A stretch of DNA of 56,234 bases, counting the filler, from Malassezia furfur (taxonomy: Eukaryota): NCBI GenBank assembly GCA_052055015.1. It is 2 parts of 2 records of this genome, joined end to end, with 100 filler letters (N's around TTAATTAATTAA, not from the genome) between each part and the next. Parts side by side here need not be neighbours in the genome. Positions count along the whole stretch, not along the records: positions 28,215 to 56,234 come from JBQJIT010000113.1; 1 more part is not named here. One strand, 5' to 3'. The notes under the pieces were generated by a model. That model saw nothing but the letters and a program-made list of their open reading frames with translations, had not been told where the DNA came from and made no database searches. This document shows positions 28,115 through 50,553 of this stretch, one piece after another (within the stretch, counting starts at the first letter, position 1; each line of letters opens with the position of its first letter). The position numbers were made by a program, and so were the translations under genes.

Positions 28115-28214
28115 NNNNNNNNNNNNNNNNNNNNNNNNNNNNNNNNNNNNNNNNNNNNTTAATTAATTAANNNNNNNNNNNNNNNNNNNNNNNNNNNNNN
28201 NNNNNNNNNNNNNN
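28115..28214. other. Artificial contig-joining linker / assembly gap
   Basis: 44 N + TTAATTAATTAA (stop codons in all six frames) + 44 N = exactly 100 nt. Confidence 0.97.
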
Positions 28215-38353: not shown

Positions 38354-39487
38354 ATGCGCTTCACCTCCGCTTTGATGAACGCCGGACGCGCCGTGCGCAT
38401 CGGCATGATCCCTGCGGACGGGATTGGCCGTGAGGTACTTCCTGTGGCCGAGCGCGTGATGACCGCTGCGCCTGGTGCACCCAAGTTTGACTTTGTGCAC
38501 CTCGACGCTGGCTTCGAGCTGTTCCAAGTGACTGGTACGTCGCTGCCGCAGGAGACCATCGACACACTTAAGAACTCGTGCGATGGCGCACTGTTTGGTA
38601 GTGTCTCATCTCCGTCGCACAAGGTCGAGGGTTACTCTAGCCCGATCGTACGCCTGCGTAAGGAGCTCAACCTGTACGCCAACATCCGCCCGGTGAGCGG
38701 TCCCGTGGTCACGGACCTGCCGTCCCAGTACCAGAAGCATGTGGACATGGTGACGATCCGTGAGAACACCGAATGTCTCTACATCAAGCAGGAGACTCAG
38801 GAGGACTCGCCGAACGGCAAAATCGCCCGTGCGACGCGCCAGATTACGGAGCATGCCTCGTCGCGCATTGGTCGCAAGGCATTTGAAGTGGCGCTGGTGC
38901 GTAAGGCTATGCGTGAGCAGGAGGGTAAGAAGACGCCGACCAAGGTCACGATCTGTCACAAGTCGAACGTGCTCTCGGTGACCGACGGTCTCTTCCGTAC
39001 GTCGGTGCGCAGCGTGTTTGAGGCGGACGAGAAGAAGAACGGCGGTCCTGGTCGCTACGAGGGCATTGAACTTGACGAACAGCTTGTGGACTCGATGGTG
39101 TATCGTATGTACCGCGAGCCGAACGTGTTTGATGTGATTGTTGCGCCAAACCTGTACGGCGACATCATCAGCGATGGCGCTGCGGCGCTCGTCGGCTCGC
39201 TGGGCCTGGTGGCCAGTGTGAATGCGAGTGACACCTTCTTCATGGGCGAGCCCGTGCATGGCTCGGCGCCCGACATTGTGGGCGAGAACCGCGCGAACCC
39301 GATCGCTGCGATTCGCTCGGCGGCGCTGATGCTCGAGTACATGGGCTACACCGACCCGGCAATGGCCATGTACAAGGCGGTGGACCGTGTGCTGCTCCAG
39401 GGCAAGACGCTGACCCCCGATCTGCCTGGCGGTAAGGCGACCACGGCTGAGGTCGAGGAAGCAGTGCTTCGCGAACTGCTTAGGTAG
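38354..39487 (+). CDS. LYS12: Homoisocitrate dehydrogenase
   Basis: IGMIPADGIGREV, GALFGSVSSP..KVEGYSSPIV.LRK, RENTECLY, HKSNVLSVTDGLFR, APNLYGDIISD, EPVHGSAPDI. Confidence 0.94.
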   Translation: MRFTSALMNAGRAVRIGMIPADGIGREVLPVAERVMTAAPGAPKFDFVHLDAGFELFQVTGTSLPQETIDTLKNSCDGALFGSVSSPSHKVEGYSSPIVRLRKELNLYANIRPVSGPVVTDLPSQYQKHVDMVTIRENTECLYIKQETQEDSPNGKIARATRQITEHASSRIGRKAFEVALVRKAMREQEGKKTPTKVTICHKSNVLSVTDGLFRTSVRSVFEADEKKNGGPGRYEGIELDEQLVDSMVYRMYREPNVFDVIVAPNLYGDIISDGAAALVGSLGLVASVNASDTFFMGEPVHGSAPDIVGENRANPIAAIRSAALMLEYMGYTDPAMAMYKAVDRVLLQGKTLTPDLPGGKATTAEVEEAVLRELLR

Positions 39488-41345
39488 ATTCTATAGTACA
39501 AGACGCTTGCGTTCGCGCGTCACGCTTGGCGAGCTCAATTTTTGCGCGAACATGGCGCAATCCGAAGGAGTGTGGATCATTGCACAGACGCAGCCACGGC
39601 TGTCCACCAACCTCGGTGCGCTCCAGCCAGCCCGGCGCGATCGACATAAGCATAGCGACCGACGCTTCGCTCTCGGTCCGACTGAGGGCGACCTTGGCTG
39701 AGTTTTCCAACGAGACCAACACATCGACCAATGGTAGTACACGCGACGTCCGCCCATGGCGCGACTGTGCGGGCACATTGGAGGAGACAAACAGCAGATA
39801 GATGGCCTCAGCCATCTCGCTTAGACGCGACAGCATCGAGCGTTCGTGTAGCGTTGGTGCCGCGGATTTTGGTTTCTGCCCATGTCGAGCGGCGTGCATC
39901 GCCTGCTCCTTGGCTCGAATGCGCTCCTCGAGCGACAACTTGGCCGTCGCAGAAGGCACGGGCGCCGGCTCAGCTGCACGCATGTCCCGCGGCACAATCG
40001 GAGCGGCCGGGACAGCAACACGCAGCGTCGGCAGCTTGGCCTCGGCCATAGGCGGCACCGAATCCAGGGCGAAGTCGGGATGCCACGCCGCCAGCTTGGG
40101 CGCTTTTCGCTTGCGCTGTGCACTCTGCGGCGGCGTTGTCGGTAACTCGCGAGCACCGCGGCCCGCTAGAGGCGAGGTCGGCGGCGAGTTCGGAGGCTCG
40201 TGCCGAATGCGCTGCGCGTGCGTCCCGCCCGACCGCGTCGCTGTCGGCGTGAGCAGGCCGTTGGATGTGCGGTAGCCCGTAGGGAGCTTGGGCGTGCTTG
40301 GCGTGTCCGCAGAAGCCAAGGGGGTATCCTGTAAAAACGGCTGTTGTGCAAGCCATCGGTCGTGCGACATGGCCACGAAATGACACAGACGGCGGTGAAA
40401 TTCGGCTCGCCGTTCGTCAACGCCGTTGTTCCACATTGCAAGGTAGCTCATCTCTTCACGTGTCGAGGGCGACGAGGGTGCGCGCAAGCGGTTCGGTGAT
40501 CGCCGCCGTGGGCTTGCCGTATTGCCCGGTGACCCGAACGTCACAGTCGGCGACACGACAGTTTTGGGCTCGTAGAGCTGCATTTCGATCCCGATACCGT
40601 AGTCAAAGATGCGCTTGTGGGTGTGTAAGTCGATGGTGCGTGCACGCGATACGACAAAACCCATGCCGCCCGCTTCCATGGGCGGAGGCGCCGGGGACGA
40701 CGGCATAGGGGTATCAGACCCAGGCGCATGCGACCAAACCCACACGAGTCGTTTGAAGTCAGCCATGGTAAACGTGCGCCGCAGTGTGCGTTCCACCATT
40801 GGCCGTAGGGTATGAAAGTGGATCACGTTGGCGATCCGCAAGCGCCGTGCAAGGCCATCATCGTGTGCCTCGGCGGCCGGGGCTCCCGATGTCGCCATAT
40901 GTACAAGGATGCTTTGTTCCACGGCGACATGCACGTCAAGGAGGAATTGTAAATGTTGTGGAAGTGGAAGTGCATCGTCAAACTCGTAGTGCGTCTCGCT
41001 GCGCATTTCCTTCGCAACGAAGCGTTCTCGGTCTAGTTCTTCCTCGGAGTGGAACTTGGGCAAGTTCGATTTCCGTGGAGACGCCCGTTCCACGAGCCGC
41101 GCTGTACTTCCCCCCAGCTCGAGCTTGACCGGCGGCCCAAGAGCGTCGGTGAACGGAACGGCACGCCGCTTGGCATGGCTGCGTGAGTCGTTGCGCACGT
41201 ACGATTCGCGCACTGACTTGGGCGTGAGGAAGAGCTCCTCGTCACTGTCTTCACGTCTACGTACTAGCGGGCCTCTATCCTCGTCCAACGCAGGGTTGAC
41301 TCTCGTCCCTGCGTCGCGACCCGCTAGCAGTGCCCACTCGGTCAT
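39480..41345 (-). CDS. CDT1: Replication licensing factor Cdt1-like
   Basis: LPLPQHLQFLLDVH.AVE, LRPMVERTLRR.F...FKRLVWVW, WHPDFALDSVP, SLEERIRAKE, LS..E...L..IAPGW; start uncertain. Confidence 0.75.
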   Translation of the reverse strand: MTEWALLAGRDAGTRVNPALDEDRGPLVRRREDSDEELFLTPKSVRESYVRNDSRSHAKRRAVPFTDALGPPVKLELGGSTARLVERASPRKSNLPKFHSEEELDRERFVAKEMRSETHYEFDDALPLPQHLQFLLDVHVAVEQSILVHMATSGAPAAEAHDDGLARRLRIANVIHFHTLRPMVERTLRRTFTMADFKRLVWVWSHAPGSDTPMPSSPAPPPMEAGGMGFVVSRARTIDLHTHKRIFDYGIGIEMQLYEPKTVVSPTVTFGSPGNTASPRRRSPNRLRAPSSPSTREEMSYLAMWNNGVDERRAEFHRRLCHFVAMSHDRWLAQQPFLQDTPLASADTPSTPKLPTGYRTSNGLLTPTATRSGGTHAQRIRHEPPNSPPTSPLAGRGARELPTTPPQSAQRKRKAPKLAAWHPDFALDSVPPMAEAKLPTLRVAVPAAPIVPRDMRAAEPAPVPSATAKLSLEERIRAKEQAMHAARHGQKPKSAAPTLHERSMLSRLSEMAEAIYLLFVSSNVPAQSRHGRTSRVLPLVDVLVSLENSAKVALSRTESEASVAMLMSIAPGWLERTEVGGQPWLRLCNDPHSFGLRHVRAKIELAKRDARTQASCTIEST

Positions 41346-41423
41346 CGTGGTCGCAACTGCACGGCCGGCCCCGGCGAGCTGCAAGGATGCGCCGCGTAAA
41401 TGAGTGTGCATCGGCCGAGAGGA

Positions 41424-43666
41424 TCAGGGGTCGTCGAGGGGCAGGGACAGCGCGGTTCTGGGTCAGCAAGACACACACCTCCACTGCATTGCGCTCGCGG
41501 CGCTAGGCGCACTCAGTAGGCACGCCGTGTTGTTTGTGTATAGGCCCAGCACGTGTTTTTGGGGGTCGTCCACCATGGCAGGATAGACGTGAACGCCACA
41601 CAGATAGACGTTTAAAATCACATCGCAGCCCCCAGGTTTTATACGCGCAATCAGGAAAGGGCTGTGTTAACAAAGGATCGTACGGGCGCAGTTCGAACCA
41701 GGCGTGCAGCCAGGAATTGCTCAATGCATCGCGCTGAATATCCAGCCATCCTTCGACTAAGCAGCGGTCTAGTGTGACCAGCTGTGACTCGGCCGTGTAA
41801 GTAAACGTGCCGGCATTCTCAAGTACACAAGTCCAATGCGCACGGAGCTGTGTGAGCCGATACACTTACCATGGCATAGGCACTCGTTCGTTTTTGCCAA
41901 AACGCCACGAGCGGGTGCAGGTTGGTGCAGGATGCAGGTGGCAGATTCAGGTGCAAAAGCCGCTCTCGTGTTCGGCACACGTTCACAGCATGCATATCTC
42001 TCCGCCATGCCGCCATATAATCAGCGACCAAGGTCAGACCGCGTGGCAAGGGCGTCGTACCCGTATCACCTGGAACCTGCACGGTCCGTGTATCCACGCG
42101 CCACAGATCCTTGGCGCTCACAATGCGCCCGGGAGACAGTGACAAGCTAAAAAACGCATGATGTGCATCTCGCGGAAGGCGTTGCACCTTGTCCCAGAAT
42201 ACATCTTCGACGTTGGGTACTTGCTGCCGTGGTGCAGTCGCCTCCTGAATGCGGAAATGAAGGGGTATCGAGAGAATCAGAGGTTGAGAGTCTTTGATTT
42301 CCACTTCGACATGCAGCACGAGACGGAGGCTGTGCCGCGGCGGGGTAGCTTGCTGCAGAAGCTCCTGGGTCGGGCGCCACAGCGCGAGAACCTCGGCATT
42401 TTGCGACTGGACGCAGCGCTGAAGGGTGCAGTAGTCCGGTTCAGACCGGATTACGGTCCCCAGCCCATCATAGAGCTGTACATCCCCGACTTGTATGCGC
42501 CGGATCCCTTGCCAGGGCAACTCCGCATTCGAATCCGAGTCGAGCGCAACGGCGAGGCATTTGATGCTTGTGTCGTCAATGAGAAAGTAGGGCGTACGGG
42601 CCGATGACTGCTTTACAACCAGCGGTACGCCATTACGGTTCAAGCTAAGCATATGCACCTCGGCACGGACACCGTGGACTGAGCGCAGTCGTCGTTTCCG
42701 CTCGTGGATGCGCGCCTGGCTCGACGGGGGAGTGATGCCCAAAATGGACACTAGGTCCTTACTCGGGAGCCGGAACTGCGACTCTTTCTGCTCGTCTCGT
42801 GCGGCCATCCGGTCAAGGAAGGCGGTTGTGGGGTATGCGAATACGTGAATGGCGGCTGAGCCAAATTGCCAGTGCGCATGCGAACGGTCGGAGCATGGCA
42901 CACGAAGAGTTGCTTGCATCCGCACGTCAGAGCACGGCTGCACTTCCAAAAGGATGGGACGTGTCGCATATGTCTCTGCATTCGGATCGTAAGCCCCTGC
43001 CAATGAATCCAGACGCAACTGAAGGTGCAGCTCGCTAACGTCGTCCACCGTGAGGCCTGTCAGCTCGTCCAAAGTCACACGGCATATGACCCCGTCTTCG
43101 TACGGGCATACATAGGCGATGCCCACGCGGCAGTAGGCCAGGATGCTAAAATCCAGCGACTGAACCGGCATGCGCCACATACGCTGGGTCTGTTGTGCTA
43201 ACGGGAATAGTGGCAAGCGCACAGTTCCAATATGCGAAAACCGTGTTAGATCATTGCCAAACAGTTGGGTATAGATGTCGGTGTGGTGGGCCACCGATGG
43301 TCCCAGCTTGCCAGACCACAGTTTATGCAACGCGCCGACTTGCTCCGTAAGTTTTTCCGTGTCCCAATACAGTATACGGCGCGCCTTACGATGGACGACG
43401 CGCACGAGAGTTTTGGGCACCATTCCAAAGTAGGGATCACTGTGTGATTCGCCTGCCACGCCCCCATGCACCGAGCTTGCTACGTTGCAAGGAAACGGGC
43501 GCTGGATAGCACTTTGGAACTCGACGTGGGCCTCCAGCAAGTTACTGAGCACGTTTGCCTCACGTACCAGGGCCGCGTTGGCCAGCACGGTCTCGGCAGT
43601 ACCTAGCAACGTGATGTCTGCCCATGCCCGCGCCCAGATACTCGCATCGCGACGCTCCAAGGCCAT
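41424..43666 (-). CDS. Diverged kinesin-3 (Unc104/Kin3/KIF1) C-terminal tail protein with PH domain and no motor domain
   Basis: AETVLANAALVREANVLS..VEFQ..I, ILYW..KL, FSHIG..LPL.PL, DLWRVDT....VPG...PRGLTLVADY, then a PH-like block (GWL..NSW..WFELRPPFL..LGLYTNN..LL.A.S...QW) after introns 41848-41869, 41662-41683, 41458-41478. Homology recognised from memory of Unc104/Kin3 tails. Confidence 0.72.
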
Positions 43667-43698
43667 AGACCGTGCTGGCTAGGATCGGATGATCGGGG

Positions 43699-45382
43699 CT
43701 ATGATTTCTCCACACTTTTGGCCTGGGCCTGCTGGACCTGGCCCTGGGCGGAGGTTTCGGCCTCTGGCAGCGCCCGCGCCTCCAGCTCCTCTGTTTCAGG
43801 GAGATTGGCACTGCCCACCGTACGACGCATCTTGCTCTTTGACCATTCATCCACGACACGTTGTAGTTCTTCGTCCTCCCGTTTTTGTTCCTCAAGATCT
43901 AGTTGTCGGAGCTCTTCCTCGATTTTTTCGAGATACCCTTCTTCGTGGGCGCGTTGCACCGGGTTTTCCGGTCGAATAATACCGTCCTTTCCGAGTACCG
44001 ACATCATTTCATAGAACTGCTCGGCGGTCATATCGTCATCGACCGCGTGCATCTTGGTTATGAATTGCTCTTCGTCCTCGTCGTCGATTTCCGCCGGGTT
44101 TCTGCGTTCCTGCATCTCGCGTTCGATCTTCATTTGCTCGCCAATGGTATAAAGGACACCAGCAGATGCGTCAATGCCAAACCGGTTCAGCATGACGCGA
44201 GCTGTGTGAGAGAAGAAACGTACCGTTTTTGTCGCCCATGAGGAACATGGCATTCCCGATCGTGAAGGCCAGAAGGGGGTATTGGTCCGAGGTGAGCATC
44301 TTGGCTAAATGTGGAAGCTTGGGCTTCGTCGGGGGGCGGTCCGGCTTGTCCGTTTCCGCGCGTTCGAAGAAGTACTCCTCCATGATTTCGCGAAGTACGT
44401 TGCTGTGCTCCGACAGGTTCGCAATCAACAGCCAAAGCGGCGAAAGGGCCGACTCAACGGTCATGTCGTAATTGAGTTTGACATCGTTCTGGGAGCCAGT
44501 ATCCGGGTCGACAAACCTCTCGAGCGAGCGCGCGGCGATACTGCAAACCTTTTTGGCGAGTTCAGTAATCCGTACGTAGCGCCCACGGTCGGGTGGCCGA
44601 CAGACGCACATTAGCGATGCCGCATATTGTATGGCGACATCGCCAAGAAAATCGTCCATGACTTTCGCGGCCATAAGGGTGCGGTACGCAAGGAGGTAGA
44701 GTTCTTCCGGACCAGGTTCCTCGGGGTCCATGGCGCTCATTGCCGCACCCAAGGCTATGCTGAGCTCATTTGAAACATTCCACGAATCCTGTGGCGTGTC
44801 TTCCGGGGGTAACAGCCTCCCAATGGCCTTGATCATGATGCGCAGGTTTTTTCGTCGCTCGACCGGCGAGATTGTCGGGACATAGAATGGGCGCGAAAAC
44901 GAGACATTGGCCAAACGAACCGCGCACGACACCGAGTGCAGGGAATCTTTGCTCTCCTTGAGCGCATCAAATACCTCGGACTGGTCAAGGAAGCGGACCA
45001 GCGCACGCATCGTCGACTCGTCCATCTCGTTGGCAAGCTCCTTGTTGTGGACCACGATGTTGTTCATTGCGCGCAGCGCGTACTCCGCCACCTCTGGCTC
45101 TTCTGCATACGGCTTCATCACAGATACATCAGCCATGCGCTTCATCATTGGCGCTGTGACGATCGGCGAGTCGGGCGTCGCATCGCGGCTCAGTCGATGG
45201 ACGGCGCGCACAACTAAACGACGAAGATCCACGTCTTGGATGTCGCCCATGATGTCCTCGGCCAGTTGCTTCGACACCTCTTCGCGCTCCGGTACATTGA
45301 AGTTGTCTTCTGCCAACAGTGACGACAGCGCCGCACGACGCTGCGCCGGGTCGCCCTGGACCTTCGCGTACGTCTTCCACAT
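43699..45382 (-). CDS. RIC8: Ric8/synembryn-like G-alpha GEF/chaperone (diverged)
   Basis: ALRAMNN, LSPL, DRP..KP.L..L.KML, G...SAG.L, DDMTAEQ; 22-nt intron 44202-44223 joins the two ORF-track pieces. Confidence 0.7.
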
Positions 45383-45428
45383 GGCAGTACGAGACACCTC
45401 CACACCCGCGCGCGCTCGGACATGATCG

Positions 45429-48400
45429 ATGGGGGCCACGGATGATCGATGGGTGCCTCCGAGGCAGGCGCAGTGTGCATTCGCACACGCCACTCTCGGC
45501 AACGTGCATCGTATTGAGTGGCGCAAGCTTGCAGCCAAAGATGGCACTAGCGGGGCGATTGACCAGCTCGCACGGGCGGCGCAGCACATGCAGAAGCAAG
45601 CGGCAGCCGCGCGTACCTTTTGCTCGGCGACCAGTGCACCCGCACAGGTGCTTCAGCTGCTTCAGTATGCCTCATTGTATCATCTTGAGTCAAGCGCGGA
45701 AGAGCAAGTGTTGTGGCTTTTTCAGTTGCCCGATGGGCCGTCGATTGTGCCGGACGCGGCCTTGGAGGGACTGGAAGGTATGTGTGCCGCCTGACGCAGT
45801 GCATGAGGCGGGTGAGTATGTCATGCAAAGTGCTACTCAAACCCCCACGTCGGCGCATATGCGCTTCCTTGAGGCAGTGCAGGCGGCCGTCGCCGACGCC
45901 TACGTCGACAGCACCGATCACGCCGTTCGGTGCAGCTCCGGCGTCTTTTTACCCCACGACGCGACGCTCGTGCAGTTCCGCGCTCATACCACCCAGACGA
46001 ACCTCGTGGTGCGCATGGCCATCGAGGCGATGCCTTGGCAGCCGCTTGCGATGGAATACGAGGCGGGCGATACGCCCGTCGCACGGCCAGAAGAAAAGCC
46101 GGTCGTGCTGCTTCCGTCTCTGGCACCCGCGACGTTTCTGGGTGCAGTGCCATACACTTCTACGCCATCAACTACGCGGCTGTCGGACGCACTCAAAGGT
46201 TCCTTGTGTCAGACACGCGCAGATGCCACGGCACTATGTCGAGTACGCGTGCTGGTCCATGCGCCGCCGAGCGCGCTTCCGACCGACGCACTCGACATGG
46301 GTCTCGATTTAGGGCACAGTACGATCTCAGTGACGCTGTCATGGCCCGCGGCTTTGTGTCTGCAGCGTATACCGAGCGCTGCGACGAGCGAAGCCCTTGC
46401 TCCGCTGCGCGAGCAAAGTGTTACGGCATTACTGGAGGCCGCCCGCGCGCCGCCCGCACCGCAATCACCGCCACGCGTACCGCTGCTACCGGATGTACAG
46501 GTGCACGGCCCGGGCGCACCGCTCACCACCAACGAGCTTGATGACGACGTGTTCCAAGGGATTGGGCAGCTGACCGAGGACGACTTTCGCTTCTTTGATG
46601 GCCCAAGCGAGGCACAGACCCCGCACGATGTACCACTCATCCAGGGCCCGGGCACACCCGAGGCGACGGCGCGCGCTGACATCGAGCTCAAGTCAGCATC
46701 CGAGCTCGACGCAGAGCTTCCGTCGGCATCTGAACCAGATGCCGAGGTGGTCACGGCGCCTCTGTCGCAGGGCGCCCCCAGTCCGCCGCCCGTCACAGCG
46801 CTCGCACCACCGCCGCTCCCCGTGCTCAAGTCGTCGAGCCCCGTGTATACCCCCAGCGCGTGGTCGCCCGAGCGCAGCGTGCGCCTCGCGGACAAGTATG
46901 ACGTACACGGCAAATTTTACACACCCACCGCGCTGCGTGACCGCAAGCGCGCCCACTCGTTTGAGGCAGACGAGCGGCGCACCGCAATGCGCCTTTCGCC
47001 GCGTACCTCGACACCACAGAGCACGGTGCTGAGCTCACCCTCGACGCACGTCTCGCCCTCGGACTCGTCTGCTTCGTCGGACGACGAGCCCGATATACCG
47101 CTGACCATGCGCGCTGCACTGCTCTACCGGCTACATACGAGTGCATGGGCGCCGCCGCCCACACCGCCTACGTACGATGCCGCGCCGGCGTCCGAGCTGG
47201 CGCGCCTCGCCTCGGCGGCGCTCGGCCACGTCCACGCGCCGGCCGCGCATGCGGCGCTCCCAGCGTGGGACGCGCTGACTACCCCCTGTGCCGCCGTGCG
47301 TCTCGCCACGCCGCGCCTGCTCGTTGGATGCCAACGCGCGGTTGTCGAAGTGGACGCGAACGCCTTAGACGCCTGGCCAACGCTCGGGCTCGAGCCGGTG
47401 GATGGCCCCAAGCGCATGCATGTCGCCGCCGTGCTCGTCGGCGACGTTGATGCGGCGGCAGTACGCGAGTGGCTCGTGGGGCTGCAGCGCACCTATGCGC
47501 GCCTGCGCATGGGTAAATTGTCGCCGTGCGACGTGTTTGTCTTGCGCAACACTCAGCTCGAGCACACCACGGGGCAGCCCGCGGCACTCGTCGACGCTTT
47601 CCAGGCGGCGTCACCCGCCGACGCACGCGCCGTGCTCGTCGTGTACGCGCCGGACGCAGAGCGTGCCGCCGAACAAACGTACGAAATGTGGTACCGCGCA
47701 CATTCCGTCCTGCCGGTGCCGCGCGCGGCAGTGCAGCCGGCCGCGACGCAACACCCTGCGTACCTCGCGCAACAGGTGCACGCGCTCTACAACGCGGCCG
47801 CACGCGCACACAGCCAGATGCGGCCCACTGCCGCGCTGGCGCCGTCGCACTATGACCCGTGCCGCTACCTGCGGCCGCGATGTGCGCTGCGCCTCGACGC
47901 GTGCGACGGGCCGCACGAGGTGCTGCAGCACGGCGCGGTACTACACCTCGCGTACGAGGTGCGCCCTCGCGCACATGGTGCGTGTGTGCGGGTCGTCGGC
48001 ATCGACGACCGCGCGCAGCGCTCCTTCCTGCACACCTGGCCGGCGACCGAAGCAGAGGCCGACATAGCCCGGGTGTGGGACACAGCATGCTCCGAGATGC
48101 ACGCTGCCGTCGGCGTCGCATGGCACGTCATCGTGAGCCGCGCAGGGCCGATGCCGCCGGGTGAGGTGCGTGCGTGGGCGGCGCTCGACGCGTCTGGTGC
48201 ACTCCGCCGCGGCCAAGGCGCGCTCGACGTGGTCATCGTGTGTGTCGAGCTCGGTGCGCCGCTACTACCATGCGCCGCATTGTACGGTGCATCGCAGGCG
48301 GTGCTCGCCGGCGAGCGCATGGCCATTCTGCAAGACCCGCTCGTTCTCGCGCAGCACACCGCCTATGTCTGCGGCCGCGACGGCGCCGACGCCTGGTCCG

Positions 48401-48654: not shown

Positions 48655-50553
48655 CTAGGAGGCCGTGGGGAACAGGTTGAACAGGCCAGCAGCTTCCGAC
48701 ATGCCCTGCGTGTGGTGACCGCCGTTCGAGTAGGTCTGCGTGCGCACATACTCGAGATCCTTCGAGCTGCCCTGAGACACAACCTTGGCGTGCGACGGAC
48801 GCGAAGCGGCGCTGGACGAGCTGTGCTTACCGGTCGAAGTGTGGTGGCCCTTGTTCTTGCGGTTACGGCAGCGGCGCATCGACTTGGTAGTCGTCGTGTT
48901 GCCGCTGTCGCTGCTGCTCAGCGAGCGCTTGCGCGCCGCCGGGTCGCTGCCCAGCGTCGGGGCCGCCGCATCCGTCGCCGTCGAGGCGCTAGTATCGTCC
49001 GTGCTCGCACTGTCCGTGCTGGTCGCGGCGCTGTCGCTCGCACTGTCCGTCGCCGCAGCCGACGAGCTGGGCGCGGCCGACGAGCTGGCGTCGGCCATGT
49101 CCGTGGTAGCCGAGGGCGCCGCCGACGACGACACCGACGAGCTGGCCGAGGTCGCGTCCGACGAGGCATCCGTGCCCGAGGCCGAGGCGCTGCTGCTCTT
49201 GTGGTGCTTGTGGTGCTTCTTGGAGCTGGCCGAAGCACTCGAGGTCGGCGCAGCCGAGCCCGAGGACGACGCCGAGCCGCTCTTGTGGTGCTTGTGGTGC
49301 TTCTTGGCACTGCTCGTCGCCGCCGGCGTGCTCATCGAGCTGGCGTGGTGCTTGTGGTGCTTAGACGAGGTGGCAGCCACCGTCGCCGCCGCCTGGCCAC
49401 GGTGGTGGCCCGTCGACGAGGTGCTGTCCATGTCCGTGCCCGGCACCGAGGTCGAGTAGGTGCCCATCGACTGGATCAGGCGCGACACAGAGGCAGCCTG
49501 CGCGGCATCCAGGCTCATCGTCTGCGTCTGCTGTTGCAGCGAGCTCGCCATGCGCTGGCGGTTCAGGTTGGCAAGCTCCGCAGACGACGGCACCTGGATG
49601 TTGCCGTTCATGTACTGGTTGCCGTTGTTGTTGCTGCTGCTGCTGCCCGTCATCTGCTGCAGCTGCGCCAGCGCCGAGCCCAGCTCGTCAGCCTGCTGCT
49701 CCGTCGAGCTCGAGTCGGTCGTCGACGTCTGCGAGTTGCGGTTCTCGTTCAGGTACGCGTTGAGCGCCGCATTCTGGTCCGAGTTGGAGCTCGTGCCTGA
49801 CAGCGAACGCTTCTCCGAGCCCGAGGTCGAGTTCTGCGGCACAGCTGCGCCGTTCAGAATCGCTTCACGGCCGTGGCGCGTGCCACCGTTGCTCGACGAG
49901 GGGATGCGGCTGCCAAGAATCGTGCTGCTGGACGCGCTGGGCGTAGCCGCACTGCCATGCGCCGAGCCCGAACGCGACGCGTTGTGGTGGGCCGCGCTGC
50001 GGTGCGCCGAGCCGTGGTGGGACGTAGCGCTCTGGCTCGGCGTCGCGCTCTGGGCGTAGGCACTCAGCAGACTCTGCAGCTCGTCGTCCGACATGCTGCC
50101 CTGGCTCGACGCGCCACGGTTCGAAGCGCCGCGGGTCGAAGAGCTCTGGCTCGAGGCACCCTGGCTCATCAGACCGTTGAGGCCCGAGCCCTGGAGCAGC
50201 GAGTCATCGCTCGAGGCACCCTGGTTCGACGACACCTGGCCGGAGGAGCCCTGCTGCACGTTGGCCTGGCGACCAGTCGAGCCGAGACCCAGCACGTCCT
50301 GGGCCGCGGCCGTGGACTGCGCAGCCGGGTTCGCGTACGAGTAGGCATGGCCGTTGTAAATCACCGCATAGCCCACCGGATGCGAAGTCGAACCCGTCGA
50401 CTCGCTCGAGGAGCTGTGGTGGTGATGGTGTTTGTGGTGACTCTTCGACGACGTGGCCTGCACGTTCGCGCTGTCACGCGCCTGGATGGGAGCGGCGTTC
50501 GTAGAGAGCGCCGCGAGGGAGAGGGCAAGCACAATGGCGGTAGAGAACTTCAT
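48655..50553 (-). CDS. Secreted Ser/Ala/His-rich low-complexity protein with dibasic (Kex2-type) sites
   Basis: Signal peptide MKFSTAIVLALSLAALSTNAAP; EKR|SLS and RKR|SLS; repeated (K)KHHKHH; intronless. Confidence 0.85.
   Translation of the reverse strand: MKFSTAIVLALSLAALSTNAAPIQARDSANVQATSSKSHHKHHHHHSSSSESTGSTSHPVGYAVIYNGHAYSYANPAAQSTAAAQDVLGLGSTGRQANVQQGSSGQVSSNQGASSDDSLLQGSGLNGLMSQGASSQSSSTRGASNRGASSQGSMSDDELQSLLSAYAQSATPSQSATSHHGSAHRSAAHHNASRSGSAHGSAATPSASSSTILGSRIPSSSNGGTRHGREAILNGAAVPQNSTSGSEKRSLSGTSSNSDQNAALNAYLNENRNSQTSTTDSSSTEQQADELGSALAQLQQMTGSSSSNNNGNQYMNGNIQVPSSAELANLNRQRMASSLQQQTQTMSLDAAQAASVSRLIQSMGTYSTSVPGTDMDSTSSTGHHRGQAAATVAATSSKHHKHHASSMSTPAATSSAKKHHKHHKSGSASSSGSAAPTSSASASSKKHHKHHKSSSASASGTDASSDATSASSSVSSSAAPSATTDMADASSSAAPSSSAAATDSASDSAATSTDSASTDDTSASTATDAAAPTLGSDPAARKRSLSSSDSGNTTTTKSMRRCRNRKNKGHHTSTGKHSSSSAASRPSHAKVVSQGSSKDLEYVRTQTYSNGGHHTQGMSEAAGLFNLFPTAS
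49195..49362 (-). repeat. Three copies of a coding repeat for (K)KHHKHH
   Basis: + strand gtggtgcttgtggtgctt at ~49201, ~49285 and ~49345. Confidence 0.85.

What the first reader, a model, noticed from the sequence alone, without database searches (positions are those of the whole stretch)
41424..43666. Motorless kinesin-3: only the Unc104/Kin3 tail and PH domain remain
Seen: an intact ~725-codon spliced frame whose motifs follow the order of the kinesin-3 post-FHA stalk, DUF3694-like region and C-terminal PH domain. It has no P-loop, switch motifs or FHA domain, and RIC8 ends 32 bp upstream, leaving no room for a motor exon. Established: Kin3 drives early-endosome transport in Ustilago, where dynein heavy chain is split into two genes. 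Inference: a split kinesin whose motor half is encoded elsewhere, a motorless cargo adaptor/regulator, or a decaying relic. The open frame and retained introns argue for function.
Basis: partly seen in the sequence, partly recalled or inferred. Interest (0 to 1): 0.72.

Follow-up and report, generated by a model that had tools for sequence, protein, structure and literature searches.

The report
Motorless kinesin-3 tail kept in Malassezia
Malassezia skin yeasts keep an intact, strongly conserved gene for only the cargo-binding back half of the vesicle motor kinesin-3, with no matching motor half found, which suggests this tail does a job of its own without moving anything.

Summary
A four-exon gene (43666-41424, minus strand, 725 aa) matches the C-terminal half of fungal kinesin-3 (HHalign probability 100, E 2e-70; Pfam DUF3694; best fold match KLP-6; C-terminal PH). 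It has no motor, neck or FHA, and RIC8 ends 32 bp upstream. It is neither a misassembly nor a relic. The second subgenome carries an intact copy (dN/dS 0.081 at dS 0.79, like its neighbours). The same motorless gene, starting at the same helix in the same RIC8-tail-CDT1 block, occurs in five named Malassezia species and four metagenome lineages, which form one clade. The split-kinesin idea found no support. None of 22 motor matches in this genome is kinesin-3, and no neck-FHA piece was found, though the assembly is fragmented and other species were only partly searched. Best reading: the ancestor lost the motor half as long-range endosome transport decayed (Hook not found). The tail stayed as a motor-independent scaffold on endosomal or vacuolar membranes; Arl8 and FHIP remain as candidate partners. 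That function is inferred, and the PH lipid-binding residues are largely lost. My literature searches found no description; databases fuse the gene to its neighbours.

The parts
41424..43666 (-). Motorless kinesin-3 tail gene, four exons, 725 aa (MBS - C2/MATH - DUF3694 - helical linker - PH)
41870..43666 (-). Exon 1, 599 codons
43487..43639 (-). aa 10-60: N-terminal MBS helices, the best-conserved block among tail-only proteins; its start aligns to the KIF1A calmodulin-binding helix
43304..43411 (-). aa 86-121: equivalent of KIF1A CC3 (the Arl8/MADD-binding segment); W101 invariant, but the segment is less conserved than in full-length Kin3
42797..43246 (-). aa 141-290: beta-sandwich, by position the domain called MATH in KLP-6 and RPGRIP1N-C2 in KIF13B (boundaries approximate)
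42239..42622 (-). aa 349-476: DUF3694 (PF12473)
41987..42166 (-). aa 501-560: conserved post-DUF3694 block (LW..T.....G.......RG..L)
41848..41869 (-). Intron 1, 22 nt
   Evidence: same position in second copy
41662..41683 (-). Intron 2, 22 nt, inside the PH domain
41458..41478 (-). Intron 3, 21 nt (22 nt in second copy)
41447..41760 (-). PH domain, about aa 629-718, over exons 2-4; keeps 1 of 6 basic positions typical of full-length Kin3
43667..43698 (.). 32-bp gap between the RIC8 stop and the tail ATG (31 bp in the second copy, about 20 bp in L041); no room for motor exons and no conserved frame
43699..45382 (-). RIC8 (synembryn), upstream neighbour, 553 aa, one 22-nt intron at 44223-44202
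39480..41411 (-). CDT1, downstream neighbour (start at 41411 or the next ATG, 66 nt further)

Best explanation
Shown: this is the C-terminal half of the fungal Kin3/Unc104 orthologue, intact and under purifying selection, in a locus that has carried no motor exons since before the sampled Malassezia lineages diverged. Strongly indicated: the motor-neck-FHA-CC2 half was lost rather than moved. Inferred: the loss went with the decay of long-range endosome transport in these yeasts. The half that stayed is the half that binds cargo, so the protein most likely still docks on endosomal or vacuolar membranes through protein partners of the old cargo module (candidates: Arl8-GTP, the FHIP/Rab5 platform, calmodulin). 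It would act there as a stationary scaffold or tether, not as a motor. Docking probably depends on proteins more than on phosphoinositides, because the PH fold is kept while its basic residues are mostly gone. My odds: about 0.85 for 'motor lost, tail functional' and 0.5 for the full statement with the membrane-scaffold role.
For: Homology: a 13-sequence tail-only profile matches positions 788-1584 of a 1597-position full-length Kin3 profile (probability 100, E 2e-70). KLP-6 is the best Foldseek match for both models (E 1e-12; E 1.9e-8). Selection: dN/dS 0.081 against 0.088 for CDT1 and 0.102 for RIC8 exon 1, and 0.058-0.109 in all five segments. Spread: tail-only forms in clusters named M. 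japonica, M. vespertilionis, M. pachydermatis, M. nana and Malassezia sp. CBS 17886. In 14 metagenome loci, RIC8 lies upstream in 11, CDT1 downstream in 12, a Kin3 N-half in 0, and the exon 1 match has no stop in any; the misses are loci whose contigs end too soon. The 14 tail-only rows form one clade (support 100). Motor absence: the ten motor pieces tested score 0.42-0.98 bits per column on a kinesin-3 motor profile, against 1.48-1.81 for 10 of 10 held-out kinesin-3 motors; 0 of 6 signature motifs occur in 16 motor loci. Context: Hook not found (Pfam Hook in 1 of 26 Malassezia genomes); M. globosa lacks Rrm4 and Upa2; FHIP and Arl8 are each present in two copies. [quoted passage not shown] Both segments are retained.
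Against: No expression, localisation or binding data. The CC3-equivalent segment is less conserved among tail-only proteins (33%) than among full-length Kin3 (48%), and so is DUF3694 (25% against 41%), which does not favour a kept Arl8 surface. The PH domain keeps 1 of 6 basic positions in the window and 0-3 in other tail-only forms, against 4-6 in 11 of 11 full-length proteins, so lipid docking may be lost. The calmodulin-type helix is basic in most lineages but not in the window's protein. Branches to and within the clade are roughly two to four times longer than those of its sister rows, so the function may have changed. All partner links come from animal KIF1A; I found no Arl8-Kin3 study in fungi (3 listings). 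The Hook searches had no working positive control. The assembly has 1856 contigs, and 3 of 8 kinesin types were seen in only one copy.
Confidence: 0.5

Rival explanations
1. Adaptor or regulator for a different motor: the orphan tail links its cargo to kinesin-1 or dynein, or its MBS domain damps another kinesin in trans as it damps its own motor in KLP-6.
For: Kinesin-1 is intact here. Dynein heavy chain domain PF08385 is listed in 26 of 26 Malassezia genomes and FHIP is kept. The MBS N-terminal helices are the best-conserved block. In KLP-6 the MBS packs on switch I/II of the motor. A non-motor KIF1C stalk fragment activates dynein through HOOK3 (abstract).
Against: Hook, through which the KIF1C fragment works, was not found. 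The FHA and CC2 that hold MBS against the motor in KLP-6 are absent from this protein.
Confidence: 0.2
2. Split kinesin-3: a motor-neck-FHA half is encoded elsewhere and reassembles with this tail, as the two dynein heavy chain halves do in Ustilaginomycotina.
For: Split dynein is documented in this subphylum. The break falls cleanly at a domain border. The assembly is fragmented. Published motor-domain counts for haploid Malassezia assemblies run from 7 to 12 against 11 for U. maydis, which leaves room for a ninth type beyond the eight seen here.
Against: All 22 of 22 motor candidates were scored and belong to other families. PF16183 gave 0 hits. Three kinesin-3 queries found no neck, FHA or CC2 match; the one faint pair (E about 0.1) was a RING coiled-coil protein. 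Both subgenome copies would have to be missing: about 4% if misses are independent at 3 of 16 (my estimate). No hit named Malassezia was among the best 120 of 760 short neck-FHA proteins.
Confidence: 0.1
3. The reading frame is not a gene of its own but part of a RIC8-tail or tail-CDT1 fusion protein, as several database models show.
For: NCBI models fuse it: M. japonica 1781 aa (RIC8 + tail + CDT1), M. vespertilionis 1262 aa, and CDT1-named models of 1225 aa in M. pachydermatis and 1824 aa in M. nana. The gaps to both neighbours are tiny, and here CDT1's frame continues right after the tail's TGA.
Against: The upstream gap is 32, 31 and about 20 nt in three loci, so the frame is not kept. The fused models use different junctions. 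All 13 aligned tails begin with their own Met near the same helix. Malassezia sp. CBS 17886 is annotated as a separate 775-aa gene. False merging of neighbouring genes is a reported problem in Malassezia annotation.
Confidence: 0.05
4. A decaying relic of a lost motor with no current function.
For: Fast evolution against full-length Kin3 (about 22% identity), long branches and loss of PH basic residues.
Against: dN/dS 0.081 at dS 0.79, with 268 third-position against 28 second-position differences; 0 of 2000 neutral simulations stay open. No stops in 14 of 14 loci. Confident folded models (mean pLDDT 77.5 and 78.8).
Confidence: 0.03

Closest known systems
Fungal kinesin-3 Kin3/Unc104 (U. maydis Kin3 type; full-length proteins P0026, P0027, P0057)
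   Same: Whole C-terminal half in the same order, MBS to PH; the clade attaches beside the P0026 group, which I take to be Ustilaginomycotina (unnamed records).
   Different: Lacks about 800 N-terminal residues (motor, neck, CC1, FHA, CC2); about 22% identity; PH basic residues mostly lost.
C. elegans KLP-6 (PDB 7WRG), MBS-MATH tandem
   Same: Best structural match for both models.
   Different: KLP-6 is a motor whose MBS locks its own head and it ends after MATH; this protein has no head and adds DUF3694 and PH.
KIF1A/KIF1B-beta tail (calmodulin helix, CC3, PH)
   Same: aa 5-121 align to the KIF1 segment holding the calmodulin site and CC3 (probability 95, E 4e-8).
   Different: Motorless tails are laboratory constructs there; here the form is a natural gene kept across a genus.
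Split dynein heavy chain of Ustilaginomycotina (Dyn1/Dyn2)
   Same: A motor gene of the same subphylum broken into parts.
   Different: Both dynein halves are kept and needed; no second half was found here.
Complete loss of kinesin-3 and Hook in Saccharomycotina and S. pombe
   Same: Yeast lineages losing long-range endosome transport.
   Different: Those are reported to lack kinesin-3; Malassezia kept the tail under selection.
Non-motile kinesin relatives Vik1/Cik1, Smy1, KIF7/Costal-2 (recalled, not tested)
   Same: Kinesin-derived proteins that work without walking.
   Different: They keep a motor-like domain; this protein has none and comes from kinesin-3.

Membership tests
Kinesin-3 (Kin3/Unc104/KIF1A) motor | N-terminal KIF1A-like motor domain with P-loop and switches | tested here: not met
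   No PF00225 hit or motif in the protein or in 41401-46000; RIC8 fills the upstream space.
Kinesin-3 (Kin3/Unc104/KIF1A) motor | Neck coil, CC1 and FHA after the motor | tested here: not met
   The alignment starts at profile position 788, past these domains; no PF16183 or FHA hit.
Kinesin-3 (Kin3/Unc104/KIF1A) motor | MBS stalk and C2/MATH domain | tested here: met
Kinesin-3 (Kin3/Unc104/KIF1A) motor | DUF3694 | tested here: met
   E 5.5e-8, 33.5 bits against a cut-off of 27
Kinesin-3 (Kin3/Unc104/KIF1A) motor | C-terminal PH fold | tested here: met
   Shown on the orthologue P0019; the window's PH aligns to it.
Kinesin-3 (Kin3/Unc104/KIF1A) motor | Basic phosphoinositide site in the PH domain | tested here: not met
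   1 of 6 basic positions against 4-6 in 11 of 11 full-length proteins; positions chosen from my alignment, binding not measured.
Kin3 orthologue by descent | Nests among fungal Kin3 tails as one lineage | tested here: met
   One clade of 14 rows, support 100, beside the P0026 group (FastTree, SH-like support, midpoint root).
Kin3 orthologue by descent | Same neighbours as full-length kin3 in an outgroup genome | not testable with these tools
   No outgroup fungal genome could be searched.
Split motor (Dyn1/Dyn2 type) | Complementary half encoded elsewhere in the genome | tested here: inconclusive
   Not found by any search, but the assembly has 1856 contigs and other species were only partly covered.
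Arl8 effector | Binds Arl8-GTP through the CC3 segment | not tested
   Arl8 is present and the segment is retained but relaxed; binding was not modelled.
Pseudogene | Stops, frameshifts or dN/dS near 1 | tested here: not met

The most novel reading that the evidence does not exclude
A whole fungal genus deleted the motor half of its only kinesin-3 and turned the cargo half into a free-standing endolysosomal protein (an Arl8 or FHIP partner, or a trans regulator of kinesin-1 or dynein). That would expose an ancestral, motor-independent function of the KIF1A/UNC-104 tail that full-length motors hide.
Probability: 0.4. Interest if true: 0.8.

Novelty: new variant of a known kind. Interest (0 to 1): 0.66.

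Why it matters
Yeast lineages that gave up long-range endosome transport are reported to have lost kinesin-3 and Hook outright. Malassezia kept the tail under selection as strong as on CDT1, so the tail must do something that needs no motor of its own. The roles of the MBS, C2/MATH and DUF3694 domains in KIF1A-type motors are poorly separated from motility, and this gene is a natural separation. Transformation tools exist for M. furfur and M. sympodialis (search listing), so a deletion and a tag can test it directly. The finding also corrects annotations that fuse the gene to CDT1 or RIC8.

Tried and rejected
Misassembly: rejected; one contig, a second genomic copy and 14 independent loci agree. 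RIC8 or CDT1 fusion: disfavoured. A faint neck-region hit on C304/C1715 is a coiled-coil RING protein, BRE1-like by recall. The PH hit on C618 is followed by a CRIB-like motif, PAK-like by recall. The search for longer relatives with the tail-only alignment returned nothing; it missed even the known fused models, so it is uninformative. The P0311 search of the genome also missed the tail gene it should have touched, so it is a weak negative. PDB sequence search with the tail profile gave one chance hit. Searches returned nothing because my thresholds were too strict; L002 was redone, L011 was not. The first tree held a mis-trimmed row, P0071, dropped. The CDT1 and RIC8 exon 2 queries were in the wrong frame; CDT1 was redone. 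The profile comparison was partly circular and was replaced. Complex prediction of aa 1-300 with the kinesin-1 motor gave no verdict (0.22 against a mark of 0.34, controls not run). Arl8 binding could not be modelled because the only Arl8 genes in hand are interrupted by introns. FHA hits were not classified one by one; a neck-to-CC2 profile scored none of them below E 1.8. Four look-ups of earlier scan notes gave nothing relevant. The ESM Atlas pointed to KIF1B/DUF3694 clusters only.

Full report
Verdict. The gene is real, intact and motorless, and it is the C-terminal half of the fungal kinesin-3 Kin3/Unc104. The same form is shared across Malassezia. No motor half was found. What the tail does is inferred, not shown.

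The gene. On the minus strand, exon 1 runs from the ATG at 43666 to 41870. Three introns of 22, 22 and 21 nt follow, and the TGA ends at 41424, giving 725 aa. RIC8 stops 32 bp upstream and CDT1 starts just downstream. No P-loop or switch motif lies in the protein or in six frames of 41401-46000 (motifs recalled). The genome has 13.7 Mb in 1856 contigs and two copies of most genes examined. The nearest named relative is M. japonica at 46-47% identity. I read it as a two-subgenome Malassezia hybrid, a state reported for M. furfur (PMC4634964, passages). That is an inference.

Identity. Pfam finds DUF3694 at aa 349-476 (E 5.5e-8). A four-sequence profile found 165 representative proteins, of which 150 were listed. 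I scanned 30 of them; all 14 longer than 1480 aa carry a kinesin motor, PF16183 and DUF3694. A profile of 13 tail-only sequences aligns to positions 788-1584 of a 1597-position profile of 13 full-length fungal Kin3 proteins (probability 100, E 2e-70). AlphaFold models of exon 1 (pLDDT 78.8) and of the orthologue P0019 (77.5) both match KLP-6 best (E 1e-12 and 1.9e-8). The P0019 C-terminus matches PH domains (Z 15.1, rmsd 2.3 A, 105 residues). By the KLP-6 and KIF13B papers (PMC9314371, PMC5290278, passages) the order is MBS, C2/MATH, DUF3694, helices, PH. About 800 residues are missing: motor, neck, CC1, FHA and CC2.

Not a relic. The copy on contig C104 has the same introns, length and neighbours and is 88% identical. 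dN/dS is 0.081 (95% CI 0.061-0.105) at dS 0.79, against 0.088 for CDT1 and 0.102 for RIC8 exon 1; five segments range from 0.058 to 0.109. Differences fall 74, 28 and 268 on codon positions 1, 2 and 3, and 0 of 2000 neutral simulations kept an open frame at each of three distances.

Not a misassembly, and old. Tail-only proteins occur in clusters named M. japonica, M. vespertilionis, M. pachydermatis, M. nana and Malassezia sp. CBS 17886, plus seven unnamed ones. All 13 aligned start with Met at or near the first MBS helix. A metagenome scan confirmed 14 of 177 candidate stretches, which fall into four lineages. RIC8 lies upstream in 11 of 14, CDT1 downstream in 12 of 14, a Kin3 N-half in 0 of 14, and no exon 1 match holds a stop. 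The misses are contigs that end too soon. In a 33-row tree the 14 tail-only rows form one clade (support 100) beside the P0026 group, on long branches (one mis-trimmed row dropped). The two deepest rows, P0022 and P0023, are unnamed and have no locus, so calling them Malassezia is inference.

Why it was missed. Several NCBI models fuse the tail to CDT1 or RIC8. The genus-wide Pfam table of PMC4634964 (rows of supplementary file 12; files 13-18 not searched) lists PF12423 in 0 of 26 Malassezia genomes and PF12473 in 2 of 26. It also lists a 'Malassezia-specific' cluster_68 with PF12473 in 13 of 26; I suspect this is the gene but did not verify it.

Is there a motor half? PF00225 gave 22 matches, with 22 of 22 candidates scored, which I group into 13 gene copies of eight types. 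PF16796 added no new locus. Best PDB hits are kinesin-1, CENP-E, kinesin-8 and KIF20A for four loci, and kinesin-5/KIF4 for a fifth. The rest I assigned from recalled motifs. Ten motor pieces score 0.42-0.98 bits per column on a kinesin-3 motor profile, against 1.48-1.81 for 10 of 10 held-out kinesin-3 motors, and 0 of 6 signature motifs occur in 16 loci. PF16183 gave no hit. Three kinesin-3 queries found nothing in the neck, FHA or CC2 region apart from one faint pair that proved to be a RING coiled-coil protein; one search is weak because it missed the tail gene too. Among short neck-FHA proteins, none of the best 120 of 760 is named Malassezia; I read 17, which look like fragments of ordinary Kin3, and 640 were not shown. 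Limits: the assembly is fragmented, three of eight kinesin types appear once, and published motor counts (7-12 per haploid assembly) cannot exclude a ninth type. I put the split model at 0.1.

Context. [quoted passage not shown] Here Hook was not found (no positive control), and the published table has it in 1 of 26 genomes. M. globosa lacks Rrm4 and Upa2 (10.1101/455378, passages). FHIP is present twice, as is Arl8. Arl8 is tied to lysosomes and vacuoles and has been lost at least 14 times elsewhere (PMC8358228, passages). FhipA reaches endosomes without HookA (PMC4091831, search listing).

How it most likely works. [quoted passage not shown] The Malassezia protein begins at that calmodulin helix and keeps the CC3 segment. 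It has lost everything needed for movement and dimerisation and kept everything linked to cargo. I therefore favour a stationary scaffold or tether on endosomal or vacuolar membranes (0.5). Three results cut against the details. CC3 is relaxed (33% identity among tails against 48% among full-length proteins) and so is DUF3694 (25% against 41%), while aa 10-60 and 501-560 hold level (48% against 44%, 43% against 41%); those two blocks may simply be structural core. The PH domain keeps 1 of 6 basic positions against 4-6 in 11 of 11 full-length proteins (the last two positions are unreliable for five tail-only rows that are unspliced or cut short). The calmodulin-type helix is not basic in this species. 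An adaptor or trans regulator for kinesin-1 or dynein is the main rival (0.2), with precedents in KLP-6 autoinhibition and in dynein activation by a non-motor KIF1C fragment (PMC11996680, abstract). Fusion (0.05) and relic (0.03) are unlikely; about 0.12 is left for a role unrelated to traffic.

Novelty. Six full-text searches (Malassezia with kinesin-3, kinesin or Kin3; motorless kinesin-3 terms twice; Arl8 with Ustilago) showed no description of this gene. I saw listings for most hits and passages for a few; one search listed 20 of 132 papers and one search listed 25 of 27. The library lacks most subscription journals, including a 2019 survey of endosomal transport components in fungi that I recall and could not read. 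bioRxiv supplements were closed. It is not a kinesin-3 motor by definition, but it is a kinesin-3 derivative by descent: a new variant of a known kind. No RNA or protein evidence was available.

Noticed in passing
window 41416-41393 (minus strand); L035:8034, L038:8028, L041:4854: A conserved element of about 24 nt lies just after the tail's stop and upstream of CDT1 in distant lineages. It ends in a CGCG-type core resembling an MCB cell-cycle box (recalled), so it is probably CDT1's promoter.
   Followed up: partly
whole window: Very short introns: 23 matches to a 21-25-nt GT...branch...AG pattern, several of them needed to keep reading frames. M. sympodialis averages 30 nt. No shuffled control was run.
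   Followed up: partly
window 45382-43699: A divergent RIC8 is present (Pfam E 4.3e-5, below the curated cut-off; dN/dS 0.10), although the published table lists PF10165 as missing from all 26 Malassezia genomes.
   Followed up: partly
P0003, P0018, P0186, P0197: NCBI models of four Malassezia species appear to fuse this gene with CDT1 and/or RIC8; probably annotation errors. Sequences were read for P0003 and P0018 only.
   Followed up: partly
G000:C127 and C169 (L049, L050): FHIP is kept in two copies although Hook was not found; an FHIP working without Hook would be unusual. FTS was not searched.
   Followed up: no
G000:C277 and C137 (L080, L084): An Arl8 orthologue with an insertion of about 25 residues after the strand that follows switch II, present in both copies.
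   Followed up: partly
window 43667-43698; L041 about 20 nt: The gap from the RIC8 stop to the tail ATG is too short for a promoter, so the promoter must lie inside RIC8 or the transcript is shared.
   Followed up: no
window 48655-50553 (minus strand): A 632-aa frame with a signal-peptide-like start and Ser/Thr/His-rich repeats, likely a secreted or cell-wall protein.
   Followed up: no
window 28115-28214: Scaffold gap (two N runs around a 12-nt TTAA repeat spacer) joining contig C112 to the next; far from the finding.
   Followed up: yes
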